Assembly: GCF_002087085.1 (NCBI RefSeq)
Contig: NZ_MWQY01000004.1
Coordinates: 62,001 to 126,000 of the forward strand
Reading direction: 5' to 3'
Length of the DNA stretch: 64,000 bases
This document shows, in pieces, positions 21,001 to 30,000 of the stretch. Positions within the stretch are counted from its first letter, which is position 1. Each line of letters begins with the position of its first letter. The position numbers were made by a program.

Positions 21001-24000
21001 GGTGGGCTATTACATCCAGACCTATACGGAAGCAAAGGAACACAACTGGGATCTTTCTTCAACAAGCTGGACCGGCGGCGCCACAGGTTCACCATCTTCA
21101 AACCTGGATAAAATTTTCAGCCCGGATTTTATCTATCATCAGATAAACGACGGCGGTGATAACGGGTCGAACATCATTCAGGCGGCCGGGCTGGTAACCA
21201 GAATCGGCGGCGCGACATGGAACACCATGCCCTACGATACTGCTGATTCAACCTCCTGGCCATCGGAGGCCGCCTGGCGGGAAGCCCCGAAATACCGGGG
21301 GCGGGAACCGGCCAAGTATTATTGGGACAATCTTTCAGCCGGTTATTTCGTTATAGAAGACGATTCAGGCATTCAGCTTCTGAAAAGTCTTCTCAACGCG
21401 GGCTACTGCGTCAGTACCGGTATTGCAGCAGAAACGGTGTATAACGGACTCGATATCAATGACGTCGTGAATTCGGCTGTTACGTGGACATCCACCAATC
21501 ATGCCCAGACTATTGTAGGCTATAAGGAGGGGACCTCGTGGGACCCGTCAAATCCCGACTCCTGATCATACTCATGATCCCGGCAATTGCGGCTCCAGCG
21601 TTCTCTTCAGGTCCCCGGGAGAGAGCGCAGGAAAACGTGGTCAATCCAGCCCCGGAGACTGAAGCGTCAGGCGGTCTTACGGGGGGATTCAGGAAAGCGG
21701 AAAAGGACAATCCTCATGTAATCGAATCTGTCCGTTTTCTGAAAGCAGAAATGGACGCCCGGGGGATCAGGGTTCAGGAAGTCCGCAGTTCGGAAATCCA
21801 GGTTGTATCGGGATATAAAGTGCATCTTGTGGCTGAGTACCGAAAAAATGGAACCAGCGACGTTCTGGATGCCCTGATCTATCTGCCTCCCCGGGGAGAG
21901 CCTCAGTTATTATCGCTTACATACGGTGCTGAATAAAAAGCAGGAGTCAGCTGTACAGGTCTGAAGCTTCCCCCTCAGGCATACCACCGGCAAAACAGCC
22001 GCTGCAGCAGGTCCAGGACCGCAAAAAAGAGAAGTCCCGCCAGGCTCAGGGCCATGATGCCGGCGTACATACGGGTGTAGGAGATCCTGGACCAGCTGTC
22101 CATGATGTACCAGCCTATCCCCGTCTGAGTGGCGAAGGTCTCAGCCAGAAACAGCACCGCGAAGGCGGTCCCCAGAGTCAGCCTCAGGGAGCTGAAAATC
22201 CGCGGAAGCAGGGCAGGCAGAATCACGTGGACCAGAAGGTCCCGCCTGCTTCCCCCCAGGGTATAGAGAGAGTCGAAATAATGCCTGTTGATTCCCGCGG
22301 TTCCGTCCCGAATTTCCAGGTAAAACTGAAAGAAAACGATCAGGGCCACGAGAAATATCTTTGAAAGGTCCCCAAGCCCCAGAAAGAGCAGAATGATCGG
22401 CAGAAGGGCGATTTTCGGAACCGGAAAGAGAACATAGACCACGGGGCTCACGACAGAGTCCGCTGCGCCGACGGTCCCGGAAAGAATTCCCAGAACCAGG
22501 GCTGGAACAAAGGCCGCAGCCAGTGCGGCCAGCACGCGAAAGAGAGAAGAACCGAGATGGAGCATCAGTTCGCCCCTGACAATCTCCGTAAACATTTCAC
22601 GGCCGACGGACACGGGGGAGGGCAGAAAGGGCCGGGCCACCAGGAACGAAGCGATCCACCACAGGGCAAAGAGGAACACCACGGCAAAGGCTGTCCTTTT
22701 CATATCCTGCCTCCGGCGGGCTTCGCGGTAATGCTTTCCAGGGTATTCCTGATTTCGACACAGCTGGAAAAAAAACCGCCGCTTTTTCGGTCCCCTGCCC
22801 TGGAGGATGTATTGCTGATCCTCGTGATGCCGCCCTGCATGTCCATTACATGAATCTCATCGCTCAGATAGGCGGCCTCTTCAATGCTGTGGGTAACCAG
22901 GATAATCGTCATGGCCCTCTCCCGGTGAACGGCAAGCAGGTAGTCCTGAAGCTGTTCCCGGGTCATGGCGTCCAGGGACGAGAAGGGTTCATCCAGGAGC
23001 ATCAGGTCCGGGTCGAGGACCAGGGAGCGCCCCACGGCGAGGCGTTGCTTCTCTCCTCCCGAGAGCTTTGCGGGATAGCTTTTTTCCTTGCCCCCGAGAC
23101 CCAGCTCCCCCAGGACCCGGTCGATCCTGAAAGCCCGTTCAGTCCGGGAAAAACCCCGGAGCCTGAGGCCCAGGGCCATGTTCTCGCAGACCGTCTTCCA
23201 CGGAAAGAGCCCGTACTCCTGCAGGATTACCGCCGTCTTCTCCCGTCCTCTTTGGGGAGCCTCCCCGTTCAGGAGCAGACCTCCCCGTTTGGCAGACAGG
23301 AGCCCGGCGATGAGATAAAGCAGGGTTGTCTTTCCGCAGCCCGATGGCCCTATGACCACATGCAGCTTCCCCGCCTCAAAGGAGTGGGAAAGTCCCCGGA
23401 ACACCCGCTGTCCGGAGCTATAGTCAAAATCCAGGTCCCGGATATGAATCATCTAAGGTTTTATTGCTCCAGTTCTTCAACTACGGCATCAAAACAGAGA
23501 TCCTCGTATTCCGGAGGGGCTTCAATCATTCCGCGCCGCATCATCCAGTCGGCGGCAGCGCTTATCTCCTCCCGTTCCGGAAGCCGGGGATACTCATACT
23601 CCACAAAGGAGAAGCTTTCCCTGATCACCGGCGGAAATCCCATTACGTCCACCAGAAAATCCCGGTAGGCGTCAGGATCGGTGTTGATATTCCTGCAGGC
23701 TTCCCAGTAGGCCCGGTAGACCCGCACTATCTCATCGGAGCGCTCCCGGAGGACCTCCCCGTCAAAGAGCATGACCCCCGGATCCATACCCAGGGCATTG
23801 CTGTCTCCCAGGGGCACCGCACCTCTGGCCACCGCGAGGGCATAGAGAGGTTCAGGAAGACAGGCTGCAGGGAGCTTTCCGTTAAGAAGAAGTTCCATCC
23901 TTACCGGGATTTTGGGTACCGCCAGGGGCTTGAACCCGGAATCCGGAATCCCTGCCTCGCTGAGCAGGCTGGAGGCCACGTACTCGATCACGGTATTGGA

Positions 24001-27000: not shown

Positions 27001-30000
27001 TGAGCTTCGGAAAAAAACTGGCGATATCGAGCTTGCGCGCCTGGGAGAATCCCCAGTCCATCAGCTCCTCAAGCTCCCCGGCCTTTTCTTCCAGAGACTT
27101 CGCACCCAGGGCCAGGGCCATACGTTCATAGGAACCGAAGGCATTAATCAGGACGGGGAACTGCGAACCCTTCACCTTTTCAAATAAAAGTGCGGGACCT
27201 CCCGACTTGCTTACCCGGTCGCATATCTCGGTGATTTCCAGGTAAGGATCAACCTCCGCGTGTATACGCTTCAGTTCTCCCCTGGACTCGAGGAGCTTCA
27301 TGAATTCCTGAATATTCTTGTAAGCCATGGGGGGAGTATACCGACAGAAAAGGATACTGTCTATTTACGACTCAAAGGACAGCATTATTTTCAGAGCCCT
27401 TCAGCGCGTCAGGTTGCGCCAGCTGAAGGGTTCGAGGAGATCCTGCAGGGGTTCTTCCCTGAGACTGTAGAACTGCTTCCACAGGGGATCCATTTTCTCA
27501 TCCGTGATCAGTTCGGTGTAGGAAGCAAGCACCATCCCTCGTCCGGGGTCCCGGTACGAGATAACCGGGACAGCGCTGACACCGCGGATTGAGGCGCCCC
27601 GTTCCGGAGAATGGACCAGATTGACCCGGTAGATAGCCCCTTCCCCGCGGGAGGGAATTTCGGTATGAACCTCATCGGGCGTCATATGCCAGGTCTGTCC
27701 GCTGATAAAGTTTCCCGCAGAGTTGATGATCAGGGCCTGCCTCCCGTCATGGCGGAGAACCATCTCCCAGGGCTGGAGTACATGGGGATGATGTCCCCAG
27801 ACAATATCCACCCCAGCCTCGATGAGTTCATGAAAAAACGCGTGTTTCCCCCTGCCGGGAAGCGTGGCATATTCCACCCCTCCATGCACCGAAAGAATGA
27901 ACAGATCGTACAGCTTCCGGATTTCAGAGATATAGTTCAGAAAGGATTCACGACGCTCAGGATCAGCGTAGTCGATCCGATTCACAAGGGCACTCCCCTC
28001 ATCCATGTTCAGGAAAGCCGTGACGGCGAGAAATCCGATCCGCATGCCTTCGGCTTCGATCAACTCCGGCAACAAGGGATCATCGGCATGATGCCGCAGT
28101 CCCGACCAGCGCGTCTCCTTCTCTGAACGCAGGATGTCGAGGTATTCGGCGGTGGCCAGGATCGATTCAGGCCCCTGGTCGGCGGAGTGGTTATTCGCCG
28201 CCGAAAAAACCTGAAAACCCGCATCCACCGCCGCATCCACATAGGAGGGATGCACATTGAAACGCGGATAGTTCTGCAGAGGCTTTGATGCATCCACGGG
28301 AAACTCAAGATTCCCGAAACTGAGGAGATCCTGCTGCAGGAAGGGTCCCACCCCGCGGTAAATCTCTTCGTAGGAGGGATTCAGGTAGTTCACATCATGA
28401 GCCATTATGTCACCGACAAAACTGAGGACAAAAACCTCGCTTGTGCGGGCCGGCGACGGGGGCGGTGTTCTGCGAATATAATCCAGACGCTGATACAGGC
28501 CAAGGAGATTTATGCAGACAAGCAGGACTGTACATAAAATAATCGTTAGACCCGGAGAGACTCGCATAAGCTATCGGATAGATAGTATTGACCATGGGAG
28601 GATATTTTTCCATTCTTTTTTCAATTTTTCTTGTTGTACCTTACTTATTTAATTATATTTAATCCCGAACAGATGCTTTATTACGGCGGTTTTGCAGATC
28701 CGCCGTCTGCAGAAAAAAAGTCGTACCCTCCGTTTCTCCCGCGTAAACGTGCCCCGCTCCGGGGCACGTTTTTTTTGATCCTGTATTAACTTTATACGAA
28801 TATTATATGTTATATTTTTCACATAAAGCACTATATTTATATATTCATAACAATATTTTGACAATATGCACATTATATGATATTTTTTTGCAAGAGGCAG
28901 AGCCTCTCTACACAACAAAACGCAACTGCACCAGTAATGCATCCGGTCAGGCTCCAGTTCACTGAGGTTCTCCTCATAACCGCGCCAAAAGGAGTACCGT
29001 ATGCAGACGCAGACAAATCCCGCAAAGCAGACTGTTTCATCGGAATCTGAACAAGAGCTTCTAAAAAATTTTCAGGAATTACTCCCGCAATTTGATCCCG
29101 AAAAAGGTGGTCTGATTCCTGCCCTGCAGTCTGCACAGAACCTCTTCGGATACATTCCCGAAGAGGCCATGCGCCTTATTTCCCGCTCCATGGATATACC
29201 CTTCAGCGAGGTAGCCGGGGTAGTCAGTTTCTATTCCTACTTTTCCACCGTACCCAGGGGGCGCCATGTTGTCCGGGTCTGCCTGGGAACCGCCTGCTAT
29301 GTTCGGGGAGGAAAGGAGGTACTGGCGGCTATGCAGAATGAACTGGGTATCGGAATCGGAGAGACCACCGAGGACAGGCAGTTCAGCCTGGAGGTTGGAC
29401 GCTGCTTCGGCGCCTGCGGCCTTGCTCCCGTTGTAATGATTGACGATCAGGTCCATCAGAGGGTACGCCCGACCTCTATCCGCAGCATTATAGACGCCTA
29501 CAGGGACGATAGCGAAGAGGAGGTACTATGATCCAGCGTATCAACGACAGGGAACACCTGGACAAGCTCTCACGGGAATATGCTGCGGACAAAAATGAGC
29601 AGACCATACTCCTGTGCGCCGGCGGCGGATGCATGGCCTCCGGGGCCATGGATGTAAAGGAAGCCCTTCAGGATGCCCTGAAGCGCAACAGTCTCTCCAT
29701 ACCCGTTAAGGAGACGGGCTGCATGGGGCCCTGCGCCGCGGGACCGGTTATAATGATCCATCCGGAAAAAATCGTCTACGAACGGGTGAGCCCGGAAGAT
29801 GCCGACGAGATCGTCACTTCCCATTTCATCGGGAAAAAACTCCTCAGCCGGCTGATCCACAAAAACTCCGGGTCCCGGGAAGAGGCCCCGGAGATGGATT
29901 CCATCGATTTCCTGAAGAATCAGAAAAAAATCGTCCTGAGAAACTGCGGCCGGATCGATCCCGGAAGAATCGAGGATTATTATGGCGAAGGGGGATACAC

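What a model noticed while it worked through the whole genome (the two positions that open the first line are those of the whole stretch)
21975..27328. Late futalosine-pathway menaquinone genes (mqnL-mqnP-mqnM) fused into one operon with an ABC importer, early pathway abs [...]
Six overlapping or abutting minus-strand genes encode the UbiD-type menaquinone biosynthesis decarboxylase (g02716, NCBIfam equivalog TIGR03701), a UbiA-like prenyltransferase (g02715), UbiX (g02714), then a full ABC importer: NMT1-type binding protein with signal peptide (g02713), ATPase (g02712), permease (g02711). No gene of the early futalosine steps, of the classical Men pathway or of ubiquinone ring hydroxylation is in the tables. 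The genome seems unable to make the naphthoate ring but able to import it, prenylate and decarboxylate it; a MenG-like methyltransferase (g02821) lies beside NDH-2 on the same contig. This names a candidate importer for menaquinone-precursor cross-feeding.
Evidence so far: genes.tsv (junctions 87880/87887, 86997/87004, 86408/86408, 85452/85461, 84700/84703); calls 16, 43, 146 (TIGR03701 E 1.8e-193, TIGR01475, TIGR00421; no other quinone-pathway family; VitK2_biosynth only a weak co-hit on binding protein g00465); call 147 (signal peptide). neighbours.tsv: NMT1-type protein within two genes of UbiA in 1,148 genomes. Calls 153-154: UbiA-UbiX-binding protein-ATPase-permease order in 2 of 5 congeners (76-95% identity) and one genome of another family (37-47%); in a third congener the decarboxylase gene abuts a homologous binding protein. 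Call 152: binding-protein homologue in 1 of 150 genomes of the wider phylum sample.
(Added by a program. Inside this text positions count along the whole contig: contig position 62,001 is position 1 of the stretch shown here. "Call 12" and the like, gene names such as g00115 and contig names such as C1 are that model's own, and its searches are not shown. The text may have been shortened before it was handed on; [...] marks where a part breaks off. The agent that wrote the report below was given it as the finding of a first reader that could run no searches.)

Follow-up and report, generated by a model that had tools for sequence, protein, structure and literature searches.

The report
Quinone-precursor import cassette beside late menaquinone genes
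Six co-oriented genes join the last three enzymes of the futalosine route to vitamin K2 with a binding-protein-dependent importer, in bacteria that cannot build the quinone ring, so the transporter is a strong candidate for the long-sought importer of a cross-fed quinone precursor.

Summary
The six minus-strand genes are real: UbiD-type decarboxylase (passes the MqnL equivalog), UbiA-like prenyltransferase, UbiX, then NMT1/SsuA-type binding protein, ATPase and permease, overlapping or 8 nt apart. The own genome (97% complete) has no MqnA/D, MqnC/E or MenB.

Of 80 related loci, 46 show UbiD-UbiA-UbiX-binding protein. A spirochaete phylum sample and a Firmicutes order show the same pattern:
- Spirochaetes: 30 of 32 genomes with this UbiD type also have MqnA/D, often in one mqnL-P-M-E-A-C-menG-D operon, and none has the binding protein. 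The two without MqnA/D are the only two with it.
- Firmicutes: UbiD and binding protein occur in the same 14 of 30 genomes; MqnA/D in 0 of 30.
- MenB: 0 of 60 cassette genomes.

Neighbours recur: long NDH-2-like, polyprenyl synthase, ApbE, FMN-binding proteins. The closest solved relative is the PQQ-binding protein PqqT.

Best reading (about 0.6): salvage of an imported dihydroxynaphthoate into (demethyl)menaquinone. The exact ligand is inferred, not shown.

The parts
25880..27328 (-). UbiD-family prFMN-dependent decarboxylase, MqnL type
   Evidence: TIGR03701 at 640.9 bits, above the 495.9 cut-off, plus UbiD_N, UbiD and UbiD_C domains. In the tree it falls inside the clade that holds the UbiDs of complete futalosine operons.
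24997..25887 (-). UbiA-superfamily polyprenyltransferase, MqnP-like
   Evidence: PF01040. TIGR01475 at 244.1 bits, above 180.8. The best single model is MqnP_DT at 258.4 bits, below its 430 cut-off. Both Asp-rich motifs are present, at residues 63-71 and 187-191. Its NCBIfam score profile matches that of the UbiA in complete futalosine operons.
24408..25004 (-). UbiX-family flavin prenyltransferase (MqnM role)
   Evidence: TIGR00421 at 208 bits, above 108.9; PF02441.
23461..24408 (-). Secreted substrate-binding protein of the NMT1/SsuA (NitT/TauT) class; candidate binder of the quinone head-group precursor
   Evidence: NMT1_2 and NMT1. Leader peptide. AF2 model with pLDDT 91.7 and a type II binding-protein fold. 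Nearest solved relatives are SsuA and PqqT. Its distribution across genomes is tied to UbiD in genomes without MqnA/D.
22700..23452 (-). ABC transporter ATPase
   Evidence: PF00005. Best NCBIfam models are the taurine/sulfonate-type ATPases, all below cut-off.
21975..22703 (-). ABC importer permease (BPD_transp_1)
   Evidence: PF00528. Scores for the SaoP, SsuC and TauC models are all below cut-off.
27335..27363 (-). Promoter-like site in the 72-nt gap upstream of the UbiD start
   Evidence: TAGACA-17-TATACT, 10 of 12 positions. This is a consensus match only.

Best explanation
The six genes form a salvage cassette for a naphthoquinone.
1. The periplasmic binding protein captures a soluble dihydroxynaphthoate made by other organisms. 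For this window that is most likely 1,4-dihydroxy-6-naphthoate, the end product of MqnA/E/C/D. The 2-isomer, DHNA, is the alternative.
2. The permease and ATPase import it.
3. The MqnP-like UbiA enzyme attaches a polyprenyl chain. A polyprenyl diphosphate synthase is encoded elsewhere in the genome.
4. The MqnL-type UbiD, loaded with prenyl-FMN made by UbiX, removes the carboxyl group and gives demethylmenaquinol.
5. The quinone then probably carries electrons from a long NDH-2-like dehydrogenase to flavinylated extracytosolic redox proteins, as in flavin-based extracellular electron transfer. It probably does not feed a classical oxidase.

Shown here: gene content, order, conservation, co-occurrence and complementarity patterns, fold, and absence of the ring-synthesis genes.
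Inferred: the ligand, the direction and role of transport, the product, and its use.
For: Anatomy: six overlapping or abutting genes.

Conservation among 80 related loci:
- 46 show UbiD-UbiA-UbiX-binding protein.
- 2 show UbiD-UbiA-binding protein.
- 10 are cut by a contig end but start with UbiX or UbiA-UbiX.
- For 32 genomes whose locus lacked an adjacent UbiD, 27 have UbiD elsewhere. Of the 5 without, three loci are contigs of 1.8-4.4 kb.

Complementarity in a 301-genome spirochaete sample:
- The TIGR03701-type UbiD passes its cut-off in 32 genomes.
- 30 of those carry strong PF02621 matches, 27 of them two, and none has the binding protein. The best score among them is 63.9 bits.
- The two without PF02621, G000 and G275, are the only genomes with strong binding-protein matches (489 and 419 bits; the next best is 238).

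Operon comparison: futalosine-complete spirochaetes carry UbiD-UbiA-UbiX-MqnE-PF02621-MqnC-MenG-PF02621 in one operon. Both operon types therefore begin with the same three genes, followed by ring synthesis in one and by an importer in the other.

Second phylum, the order of G050 (30 genomes): UbiD and binding protein occur in the same 14 genomes, neither in the other 16, and PF02621 in 0 of 30. The same six-gene order is seen in L120 and L121.

No ring synthesis in cassette genomes:
- PF02621: only weak single hits of 49 bits or less in 50 genomes, and none in 5 more.
- MenB: 0 of 60.

Quinone context:
- ApbE lies directly upstream of UbiD in L073, L077 and G275.
- A long NDH-2-like gene with a polyprenyl synthase lies beside the cassette in L011, L077 and L121.
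- FMN_bind proteins occur in L067 and L121.
- The own genome has a long NDH-2-like gene followed by a polyprenyl synthase at C75:18332-21575.

A closely related binding protein with its ABC genes follows a MenA-like prenyltransferase and a HepT-like synthase in L067. That genome has no UbiD, MenB or PF02621.

The closest solved relative by sequence is PqqT, which binds the quinone carboxylate PQQ (passages of PMC11331073).

Literature: importers of menaquinone precursors were said to 'remain to be annotated' (passages of PMC4746308), and quinone uptake routes were 'yet to be identified' (passages of PMC10746273).
Against: - No ligand was tested. NMT1/SsuA-type proteins bind very different compounds, and the PQQ-contacting Lys and Tyr of PqqT are not conserved.
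- The family's invariant residues are rich in Asp and Glu, which is not an obvious carboxylate site.
- The UbiA is below all three MqnP-specific cut-offs.
- UbiA is only 34% identical to the UbiA of futalosine operons at a UbiD divergence where import-type UbiAs are 48-50% identical to each other. The acceptor may therefore differ from that of true MqnP.
- Import-type UbiD and UbiA are closer to the Firmicutes cassette than to spirochaete futalosine operons. The 'complementarity' within spirochaetes may thus be few events, perhaps one, plus lateral transfer.
- Quinone consumers are not obvious. Cytochrome bd occurs in only 6 of 51 genomes and not in the own genome.
- A clear MenG is missing in 3 of 5 cassette genomes tested.
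- 14 of 80 loci have the transporter with at least 3.2 kb of upstream sequence holding no UbiD, UbiA or UbiX.
- Most genomes are metagenome bins, so each single absence is weak.
Confidence: 0.6

Rival explanations
1. The transporter imports a flavin (riboflavin, FMN or FAD), as RibY-type NMT1-family proteins do. It would supply UbiX (prenyl-FMN) and the ApbE-dependent flavinylation systems encoded nearby.
For: - The binding-protein gene always directly follows UbiX.
- 3 loci show UbiX-binding protein with room upstream and no UbiD or UbiA.
- ApbE directly precedes the transporter in L066 and L076.
- 45 of 51 genomes from the related loci lack lumazine synthase.
- That NMT1-type proteins include a riboflavin binder is recalled, not tested here.
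Against: - The own genome and five others have RibH.
- 4 of 5 Firmicutes carriers have RibH.
- Of 71 RibH-negative genomes in the phylum sample, only G275 has the strong binding protein.
- Futalosine-complete genomes also have UbiX but never the transporter.
- No FMN riboswitch, or any Rfam match, in the window or in 10 loci.
Confidence: 0.1
2. The cassette salvages a benzoate such as 4-hydroxybenzoate, or another aromatic acid. It would make a polyprenyl phenol or an undescribed prenylated quinone, not a menaquinone.
For: - The UbiA is below the MqnP cut-offs and also scores on 4-hydroxybenzoate prenyltransferase models.
- UbiA has diverged more from true MqnP than UbiD divergence predicts.
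- Carriers come from sediment, digester and termite-gut records (titles). That hydroxybenzoates are common in such habitats is general knowledge, not tested here.
Against: - UbiD passes the MqnL equivalog and clusters with the UbiDs of futalosine operons.
- The UbiA's NCBIfam score ranking is the same as that of UbiA in complete futalosine operons.
- In L067 and L121 the transporter lies near MenA-like naphthoate prenyltransferases.
- The proteobacterial UbiA model scores only 117.7 bits against a cut-off of 275.
Confidence: 0.13
3. These bacteria build the ring by an unrecognised route, and the transporter imports something else the pathway needs or is only co-regulated with it.
For: - Absence calls rest on known families only.
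- Sphaerochaeta loci have a 430-aa protein without a Pfam family directly upstream of UbiD.
- The own genome has a type III polyketide synthase cluster that could make an aromatic ring.
Against: - The strict co-occurrence of binding protein and UbiD in two phyla, and its absence wherever MqnA/D are present, is what a substitute for ring synthesis predicts.
- The extra upstream genes are not conserved across carriers.
- The UbiE-like gene of the polyketide cluster was matched above 150 bits only in the own genome and its closest relative, of the 5 genomes searched.
Confidence: 0.1

Closest known systems
Late futalosine-pathway genes mqnL (SCO4490 type), mqnP and mqnM, as predicted by Ravcheev and Thiele 2016 (PMC4746308, passages read)
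   Same: The same three families in the same order as in complete futalosine operons of other spirochaetes. UbiD passes the MqnL equivalog.
   Different: No MqnA, C, D or E anywhere in the genome. The three genes are followed by an ABC importer instead of ring-synthesis genes. UbiA is below the MqnP-specific cut-offs and more diverged than UbiD or UbiX.
PqqT, the periplasmic PQQ-binding protein of Methylobacterium extorquens (PDB 9B1U; PMC11331073, passages read)
   Same: Best PDB match by sequence profile (E 1e-9, 22-23% identity) and among the top Foldseek matches. Same NMT1/SsuA-type fold. PqqT scavenges an exogenous quinone cofactor that bears carboxylates.
   Different: The PQQ-contacting Lys aligns with Glu, and the stacking Tyr aligns with the Pro of an invariant LPEP motif. 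It is not a PqqT orthologue, and the gene context is different.
DHNA salvage through MenA/DmkA in the flavin-based extracellular electron transfer loci of Listeria and lactobacilli (locus content recalled; PMC10746273 passages read for the missing uptake route)
   Same: Quinone auxotrophs that finish a naphthoquinone from an exogenous head group. Neighbours include a long NDH-2-like gene, polyprenyl synthase, ApbE and FMN-binding proteins.
   Different: Here the finishing enzymes are UbiA, UbiD and UbiX rather than MenA, except in L067. A dedicated binding-protein-dependent importer is encoded in the same operon. The hosts are mostly diderm spirochaetes.
SsuABC/TauABC sulfonate importers and the ThiY/THI5 family
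   Same: Same transporter class and fold.
   Different: All sulfonate, taurine and nitrate models are far below cut-off. No sulfur-metabolism neighbours and no TPP riboswitch.

Membership tests
MqnL (menaquinone biosynthesis decarboxylase, TIGR03701) | Score above the curated equivalog cut-off, with the UbiD three-domain architecture | tested here: met
   640.9 bits against 495.9; UbiD_N, UbiD and UbiD_C
MqnL (menaquinone biosynthesis decarboxylase, TIGR03701) | Groups with the UbiDs encoded in operons with MqnE, MqnC and MqnA/D | tested here: met
   Inside the 100%-supported clade that holds the futalosine-operon UbiDs, as its own subclade (SH-aLRT 99; 69 once the Firmicutes rows are added)
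MqnL (menaquinone biosynthesis decarboxylase, TIGR03701) | Occurs in a genome with the early futalosine genes | tested here: not met
   No PF02621, MqnC or MqnE in the own genome
MqnL (menaquinone biosynthesis decarboxylase, TIGR03701) | Decarboxylates a prenylated 6-carboxynaphthoquinol | not testable with these tools
   Needs an enzyme assay
MqnP (futalosine-pathway prenyltransferase) | UbiA fold with both Asp-rich motifs | tested here: met
   PF01040 at 178 bits; motifs at residues 63-71 and 187-191
MqnP (futalosine-pathway prenyltransferase) | Score above one of the NCBIfam MqnP models | tested here: not met
   258.4, 213 and 189.7 bits against cut-offs of 430, 420 and 375. The UbiAs of complete spirochaete futalosine operons also fail these lineage-specific models.
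MqnP (futalosine-pathway prenyltransferase) | Divergence from operon-proven MqnP in line with that of its partner genes | tested here: inconclusive
   34% identity where 48-50% is seen among import-type pairs at equal UbiD identity. Tree path ratios are less extreme.
UbiX/MqnM flavin prenyltransferase | Score above the TIGR00421 cut-off | tested here: met
   208 bits against 108.9
Binding-protein-dependent ABC importer of the NitT/TauT (NMT1/SsuA) class | Secreted type II binding protein, BPD_transp_1 permease and ABC ATPase encoded together | tested here: met
SsuA sulfonate-binding proteins | Score above the TIGR01728 cut-off | tested here: not met
   71.6 bits against 163.5
PqqT PQQ-binding proteins | Conserved PQQ-contacting Lys/Asn pair and stacking Tyr | tested here: not met
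   These positions align to Glu/Tyr and to Pro of LPEP (with residues from PMC11331073 passages)
RibXY-type riboflavin importers | FMN riboswitch control and/or presence tracking riboflavin auxotrophy | tested here: not met
   No Rfam match. Only 1 of 71 RibH-negative spirochaetes has the strong binding protein. RibH is present in the own genome and in 4 of 5 Firmicutes carriers.
Flavin-based extracellular electron transfer locus (Listeria type; composition recalled) | Long NDH-2, polyprenyl synthase, naphthoate prenyltransferase, ApbE-type flavin transferase and FMN-binding lipoprotein clustered together | tested here: inconclusive
   Subsets lie next to the cassette in L011, L067, L073, L077, L095 and L121. 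In the own genome they are scattered over contigs C75, C56 and C13. No sequence comparison with the Listeria proteins was made.

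The most novel reading that the evidence does not exclude
The cassette is a laterally mobile, self-contained 'quinone head-group salvage' unit and holds the first identified importer of a menaquinone precursor. It would show that 1,4-dihydroxy-6-naphthoate, an intermediate of the futalosine pathway never described as an exchanged metabolite, is a public good in anoxic communities such as sediments, digesters and termite guts. It would let fermentative spirochaetes and Firmicutes run a quinone-dependent electron transfer chain to the cell surface without any ring synthesis.
Probability: 0.35. Interest if true: 0.85.

Novelty: new variant of a known kind. Interest (0 to 1): 0.72.

Why it matters
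Many gut and sediment bacteria are quinone auxotrophs that grow only when fed quinones or their soluble precursors. No uptake system for such a precursor has been named in the papers read here: one calls the importers 'to be annotated' (PMC4746308) and another calls uptake 'yet to be identified' (PMC10746273). My searches of the held library for an importer of dihydroxynaphthoates found none.

This cassette makes the question directly testable. It gives one soluble binding protein to express and titrate, and cultured carriers exist. It would also:
- correct routine annotation, which now reads 'sulfonate/nitrate transporter' and '4-hydroxybenzoate pathway';
- allow quinone dependency to be predicted from genomes;
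- explain why strictly fermentative spirochaetes keep UbiA, UbiD and UbiX.

Tried and rejected
- Riboswitch control: no Rfam match in the window or in 10 loci.
- Cytochrome bd as the quinol consumer: only 6 of 51 genomes, and not the own genome. Dropped as a general explanation.
- Descent of the binding protein from MqnA/MqnD, which share the fold: only a distant structural match (1zbm, rank 47), and no PF02621 match at E <= 1e-5 on the protein. Not pursued.
- 'In situ replacement' of the early genes within the spirochaete operon: weakened. Import-type UbiD and UbiA are closer to the Firmicutes cassette than to spirochaete futalosine operons.
- Literature: the flavinylation survey (PMC8238504) and the Breznakiellaceae genome paper (PMC13067680) contain none of the terms UbiA, UbiD, menaquinone/quinone or ABC transporter that I searched for in each. 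I did not open their supplements.
- Expression: contigs from four sediment metatranscriptome libraries of two studies match parts of all six genes at 95% or better. One contig bridges the ATPase/permease junction and one bridges the UbiD/UbiA junction. Contigs in RNA libraries can contain DNA and cannot show a single transcript, so this is a hint only. The lack of cover over the upstream PGA_cap gene is not evidence.

Full report
**1. The observation**

One search finds six minus-strand ORFs between 21975 and 27328.

Profile searches identify them as follows:
- A UbiD-family decarboxylase. It passes the NCBIfam equivalog for the menaquinone biosynthesis decarboxylase (TIGR03701, 640.9 bits, cut-off 495.9).
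- A UbiA-superfamily prenyltransferase. TIGR01475 scores 244.1 bits against a cut-off of 180.8. The best single model is MqnP_DT at 258.4 bits, below its cut-off of 430.
- A UbiX flavin prenyltransferase.
- A binding protein of the NMT1/SsuA class. The SsuA model scores only 71.6 bits against 163.5.
- An ABC ATPase and a BPD_transp_1 permease.

The binding protein has a hydrophobic leader. The UbiA has both Asp-rich motifs. A promoter-like site lies in the 72-nt gap upstream of UbiD. The next gene upstream, a PGA_cap protein, is kept only in the closest relative.

The own genome has 4.22 Mb in 79 contigs and is 97.2% complete. It has:
- no PF02621 match, so no MqnA or MqnD;
- only weak radical-SAM hits to the MqnE and MqnC models;
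- no MenB;
- no MenA-like gene.

**2. Conservation**

The binding protein has 318 relatives at E <= 1e-10. The named ones are mostly Sphaerochaeta, Treponema, Rectinemataceae and other spirochaetes. A profile of 19 of them recovered 123 places in species genomes, and 80 loci were kept.

tblastn with the window's proteins sorts the 80 loci as follows:

| Arrangement | Loci |
|---|---|
| UbiD-UbiA-UbiX-binding protein | 46 |
| UbiD-UbiA-binding protein | 2 |
| Cut by a contig end directly upstream of UbiA-UbiX or UbiX | 10 |
| UbiX-binding protein, with room upstream but no UbiD or UbiA | 3 |
| Transporter with at least 3.2 kb of unrelated upstream sequence | 14 |
| Transporter alone, too close to a contig end to tell | 5 |

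I searched 32 genomes whose locus lacked an adjacent UbiD. Of these, 27 have UbiD elsewhere and 24 pass the cut-off. Of the five without, three loci are contigs of 1.8-4.4 kb.

On a tree of the binding proteins, the label 'linked' versus 'unlinked' changes 9 times. The unlinked copies are therefore rearranged members of the same family, not a separate paralogue.

**3. The key test: who has the transporter?**

I searched a sample of 301 spirochaete genomes (the own genome plus 300).
- The TIGR03701-type UbiD passes its cut-off in 32.
- 30 of these have strong PF02621 matches of 120-263 bits, 27 of them two.
- The two exceptions are the own genome and G275.
- The binding-protein profile scores 489 and 419 bits in exactly these two genomes. 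The next best score is 238 bits, in genomes without UbiD. Among the 30 futalosine-complete genomes the best score is 63.9 bits.

A separate Leptospira-like family (45 of 45 genomes) has a more distant UbiD of about 450 bits plus two PF02621 genes, and no binding protein.

In the 50 genomes behind the related loci, PF02621 gives only single weak hits of at most 49 bits. Five more genomes give none. MenB passes in 0 of 60 carriers.

A second, unrelated test set is the Firmicutes order of G050, named Tepidanaerobacteraceae in the record titles of L066 and L076. It has 30 genomes.
- UbiD occurs in 13 plus one fragment.
- The binding protein occurs in exactly the same 14 genomes, and neither gene in the other 16.
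- PF02621 occurs in 0 of 30.
- In 9 of the 14 the binding protein lies about 1.7 kb from UbiD on the same strand.
- L120 and L121 show the full six-gene order.

**4. What the relatives with the full pathway look like**

In futalosine-complete spirochaetes the late and early genes form one operon: UbiD-UbiA-UbiX-MqnE-PF02621-MqnC-MenG-PF02621. It is complete in L096 and L104 and partial in L098, L102, L107, L110 and L112.

Both operon types thus open with the same three genes. One continues with ring synthesis and the other with an importer. The UbiA of these operons has the same NCBIfam score ranking as the window's UbiA, and it also fails the three lineage-specific MqnP models.

**5. Evolution of the cassette**

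In the UbiD tree the import-type proteins form one clade (SH-aLRT 99). It lies inside the 100%-supported clade that also holds the futalosine-operon UbiDs.

Adding the two Firmicutes cassettes gives these mean path lengths:

| Protein | Import-type spirochaete to Firmicutes | Import-type to futalosine-type spirochaete |
|---|---|---|
| UbiD | 1.08 | 1.52 |
| UbiA | 1.93 | 3.14 |

The cassette is therefore a lineage of its own, shared between two phyla and probably moved as a unit. A transposase abuts it in L120. This means the neat complementarity within spirochaetes may reflect few events.

At equal UbiD identity (55-65%), UbiA is 48-50% identical among import-type pairs but 34% between import-type and futalosine-type pairs. 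UbiX shows almost no such gap, at 43-44% against 40-42%. The prenyl acceptor may therefore not be identical to that of true MqnP.

**6. Neighbours and likely use**

Clustering all flanking ORFs and profile searches show recurrent partners.
- ApbE flavin transferase: directly upstream of UbiD in L073 and L077; in G275 as polyprenyl synthase-ApbE-UbiD-UbiA; nearby in L010 and L021; directly upstream of the transporter in L066 and L076.
- A 580-700-residue NDH-2-like protein paired with a HepT-like polyprenyl diphosphate synthase: in L011, L077, L067 and L121.
- FMN_bind proteins: in L067 and L121.
- A Hpre_diP_synt_I protein: in L021.

This resembles the flavin-based extracellular electron transfer loci of Firmicutes. 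I recall the composition of those loci and did not compare sequences.

The own genome has the long NDH-2-like gene followed by a polyprenyl synthase on contig C75, ApbE on C56 and an FMN_bind protein on C13. Cytochrome bd is rare, at 6 of 51 genomes, and is missing from the own genome.

**7. Which ligand?**

For the 6-isomer: the UbiD is an MqnL by equivalog and by tree, and the own genome has no MenA-like enzyme.

For the 2-isomer (DHNA):
- L067 carries NDH-2-like, two FMN_bind genes, polyprenyl synthase, a MenA-like prenyltransferase, and then binding protein, ATPase and permease. Only DHNA-prenyltransferase models hit the MenA-like protein, best 229.8 bits against a cut-off of 289.
- That genome has no UbiD, MenB or PF02621.
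- Its binding protein is a near relative of operon-linked ones, with a path of 0.66 to L065.
- L121 has both prenyltransferase types.
- The extra divergence of UbiA fits a changed acceptor.

Both routes would end in demethylmenaquinol.

A clear MenG is present in futalosine operons (199-229 bits). It was not found in G006, G019 or G275. Many carriers may therefore stop at demethylmenaquinone.

**8. Structure**

The AF2 model is confident (pLDDT 91.7). Foldseek places it among SsuA, a Staphylococcus import component, PqqT, ThiY and THI5.

By sequence profile the only PDB hits below 1e-8 are PqqT and its variant. [quoted passage not shown] The PQQ-contacting Lys and stacking Tyr are not conserved here.

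The resemblance therefore shows that this protein class can carry quinone carboxylates. It does not show that the ligand is PQQ.

**9. The flavin rival**

45 of 51 genomes from the related loci lack lumazine synthase, and the transporter always follows UbiX. Against the flavin reading:
- The own genome has RibH.
- 4 of 5 Firmicutes carriers have RibH.
- Among 71 RibH-negative spirochaetes in the sample, only G275 has the strong binding protein.
- No FMN riboswitch was found.

**10.

The UbiE-like gene at contig C34:201425-202093 scores 153.3 bits, below the 158.35 cut-off. It lies between an FAD_binding_3 hydroxylase, a type III polyketide synthase, a second methyltransferase and a 382-residue Pyr_redox_2 protein.

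Type III synthase plus methyltransferase plus oxidoreductase is the layout of the polyketide-quinone and alkylresorcinol operons of actinomycetes (PMC9927152, passages). This gene may therefore serve another quinone. It is weak support for a menaquinone methylation step.

**11. Expression hint**

Contigs from four sediment metatranscriptome libraries of two studies match parts of all six genes at 95% or better. One contig bridges the ATPase/permease junction and one bridges the UbiD/UbiA junction. Such contigs can derive from DNA and cannot prove a single transcript.

**12. Verdict**

The finding is real and conserved. The functional coupling of the importer to the late menaquinone enzymes is strongly supported by comparative genomics in two phyla. 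The ligand, the product and the physiological role remain inferences.

In the papers I read, and in my searches of the held library, no importer of a menaquinone head-group precursor is described. I rate it a new variant of known kinds (ABC importer; futalosine late steps) with high practical interest.

Noticed in passing
L094:8270-13277 (own genome, contig C34 about 200.3-205.3 kb, outside the window): A cluster of FAD_binding_3 hydroxylase, UbiE-like methyltransferase (opposite strand), type III polyketide synthase, a second methyltransferase and a short Pyr_redox_2 protein. It resembles the polyketide-quinone/alkylresorcinol operons of actinomycetes, which would be unusual in a spirochaete.
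   Followed up: partly
L094:3069-8180 (own genome, contig C34): AIR-synthase-related (SelD-like), SelB and SelA genes lie next to a peroxiredoxin split into two ORFs. The missing stretch (profile positions about 41-65) lies between the two ORFs. This may be a selenocysteine-containing peroxiredoxin read through an in-frame stop codon.
   Followed up: no
own genome, contig C75:18332-21575: A long NDH-2-like gene (46% identical to the one beside the cassette in L011, including its C-terminal extension) is followed directly by a polyprenyl diphosphate synthase. This is the likely reductase/side-chain pair for the quinone.
   Followed up: partly
L115-L117 (genomes G252, G149, G340): A Leptospira-like family (45 of 45 genomes) has two MqnA/D genes, but its UbiD scores about 430-460 bits, below the TIGR03701 cut-off, in open frames of about 600 residues. 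The equivalog model misses these probable MqnL proteins.
   Followed up: no
L120:11822-13297: A DDE transposase abuts the UbiD end of the six-gene cassette in a complete Firmicutes chromosome. This fits lateral movement of the cassette.
   Followed up: no
G006:C1:587967-588722: A MenA-like gene with an in-frame TAG in a Sphaerochaeta chromosome that also carries the cassette. It may be a decaying second prenyltransferase.
   Followed up: no
L087: A record titled Leptospira biflexa carries the import-type cassette, and in the UbiD tree it sits among Spirochaetaceae/Rectinema-like bins. The record's organism label looks wrong.
   Followed up: no
L026, L027, L030, L035, L036 and L120:14245-15192: An aldo-keto reductase with a C-terminal 4Fe-4S domain directly precedes the unlinked transporter in five termite-gut Treponema loci. 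A similar protein lies near the cassette in L120. Its role is unknown.
   Followed up: no
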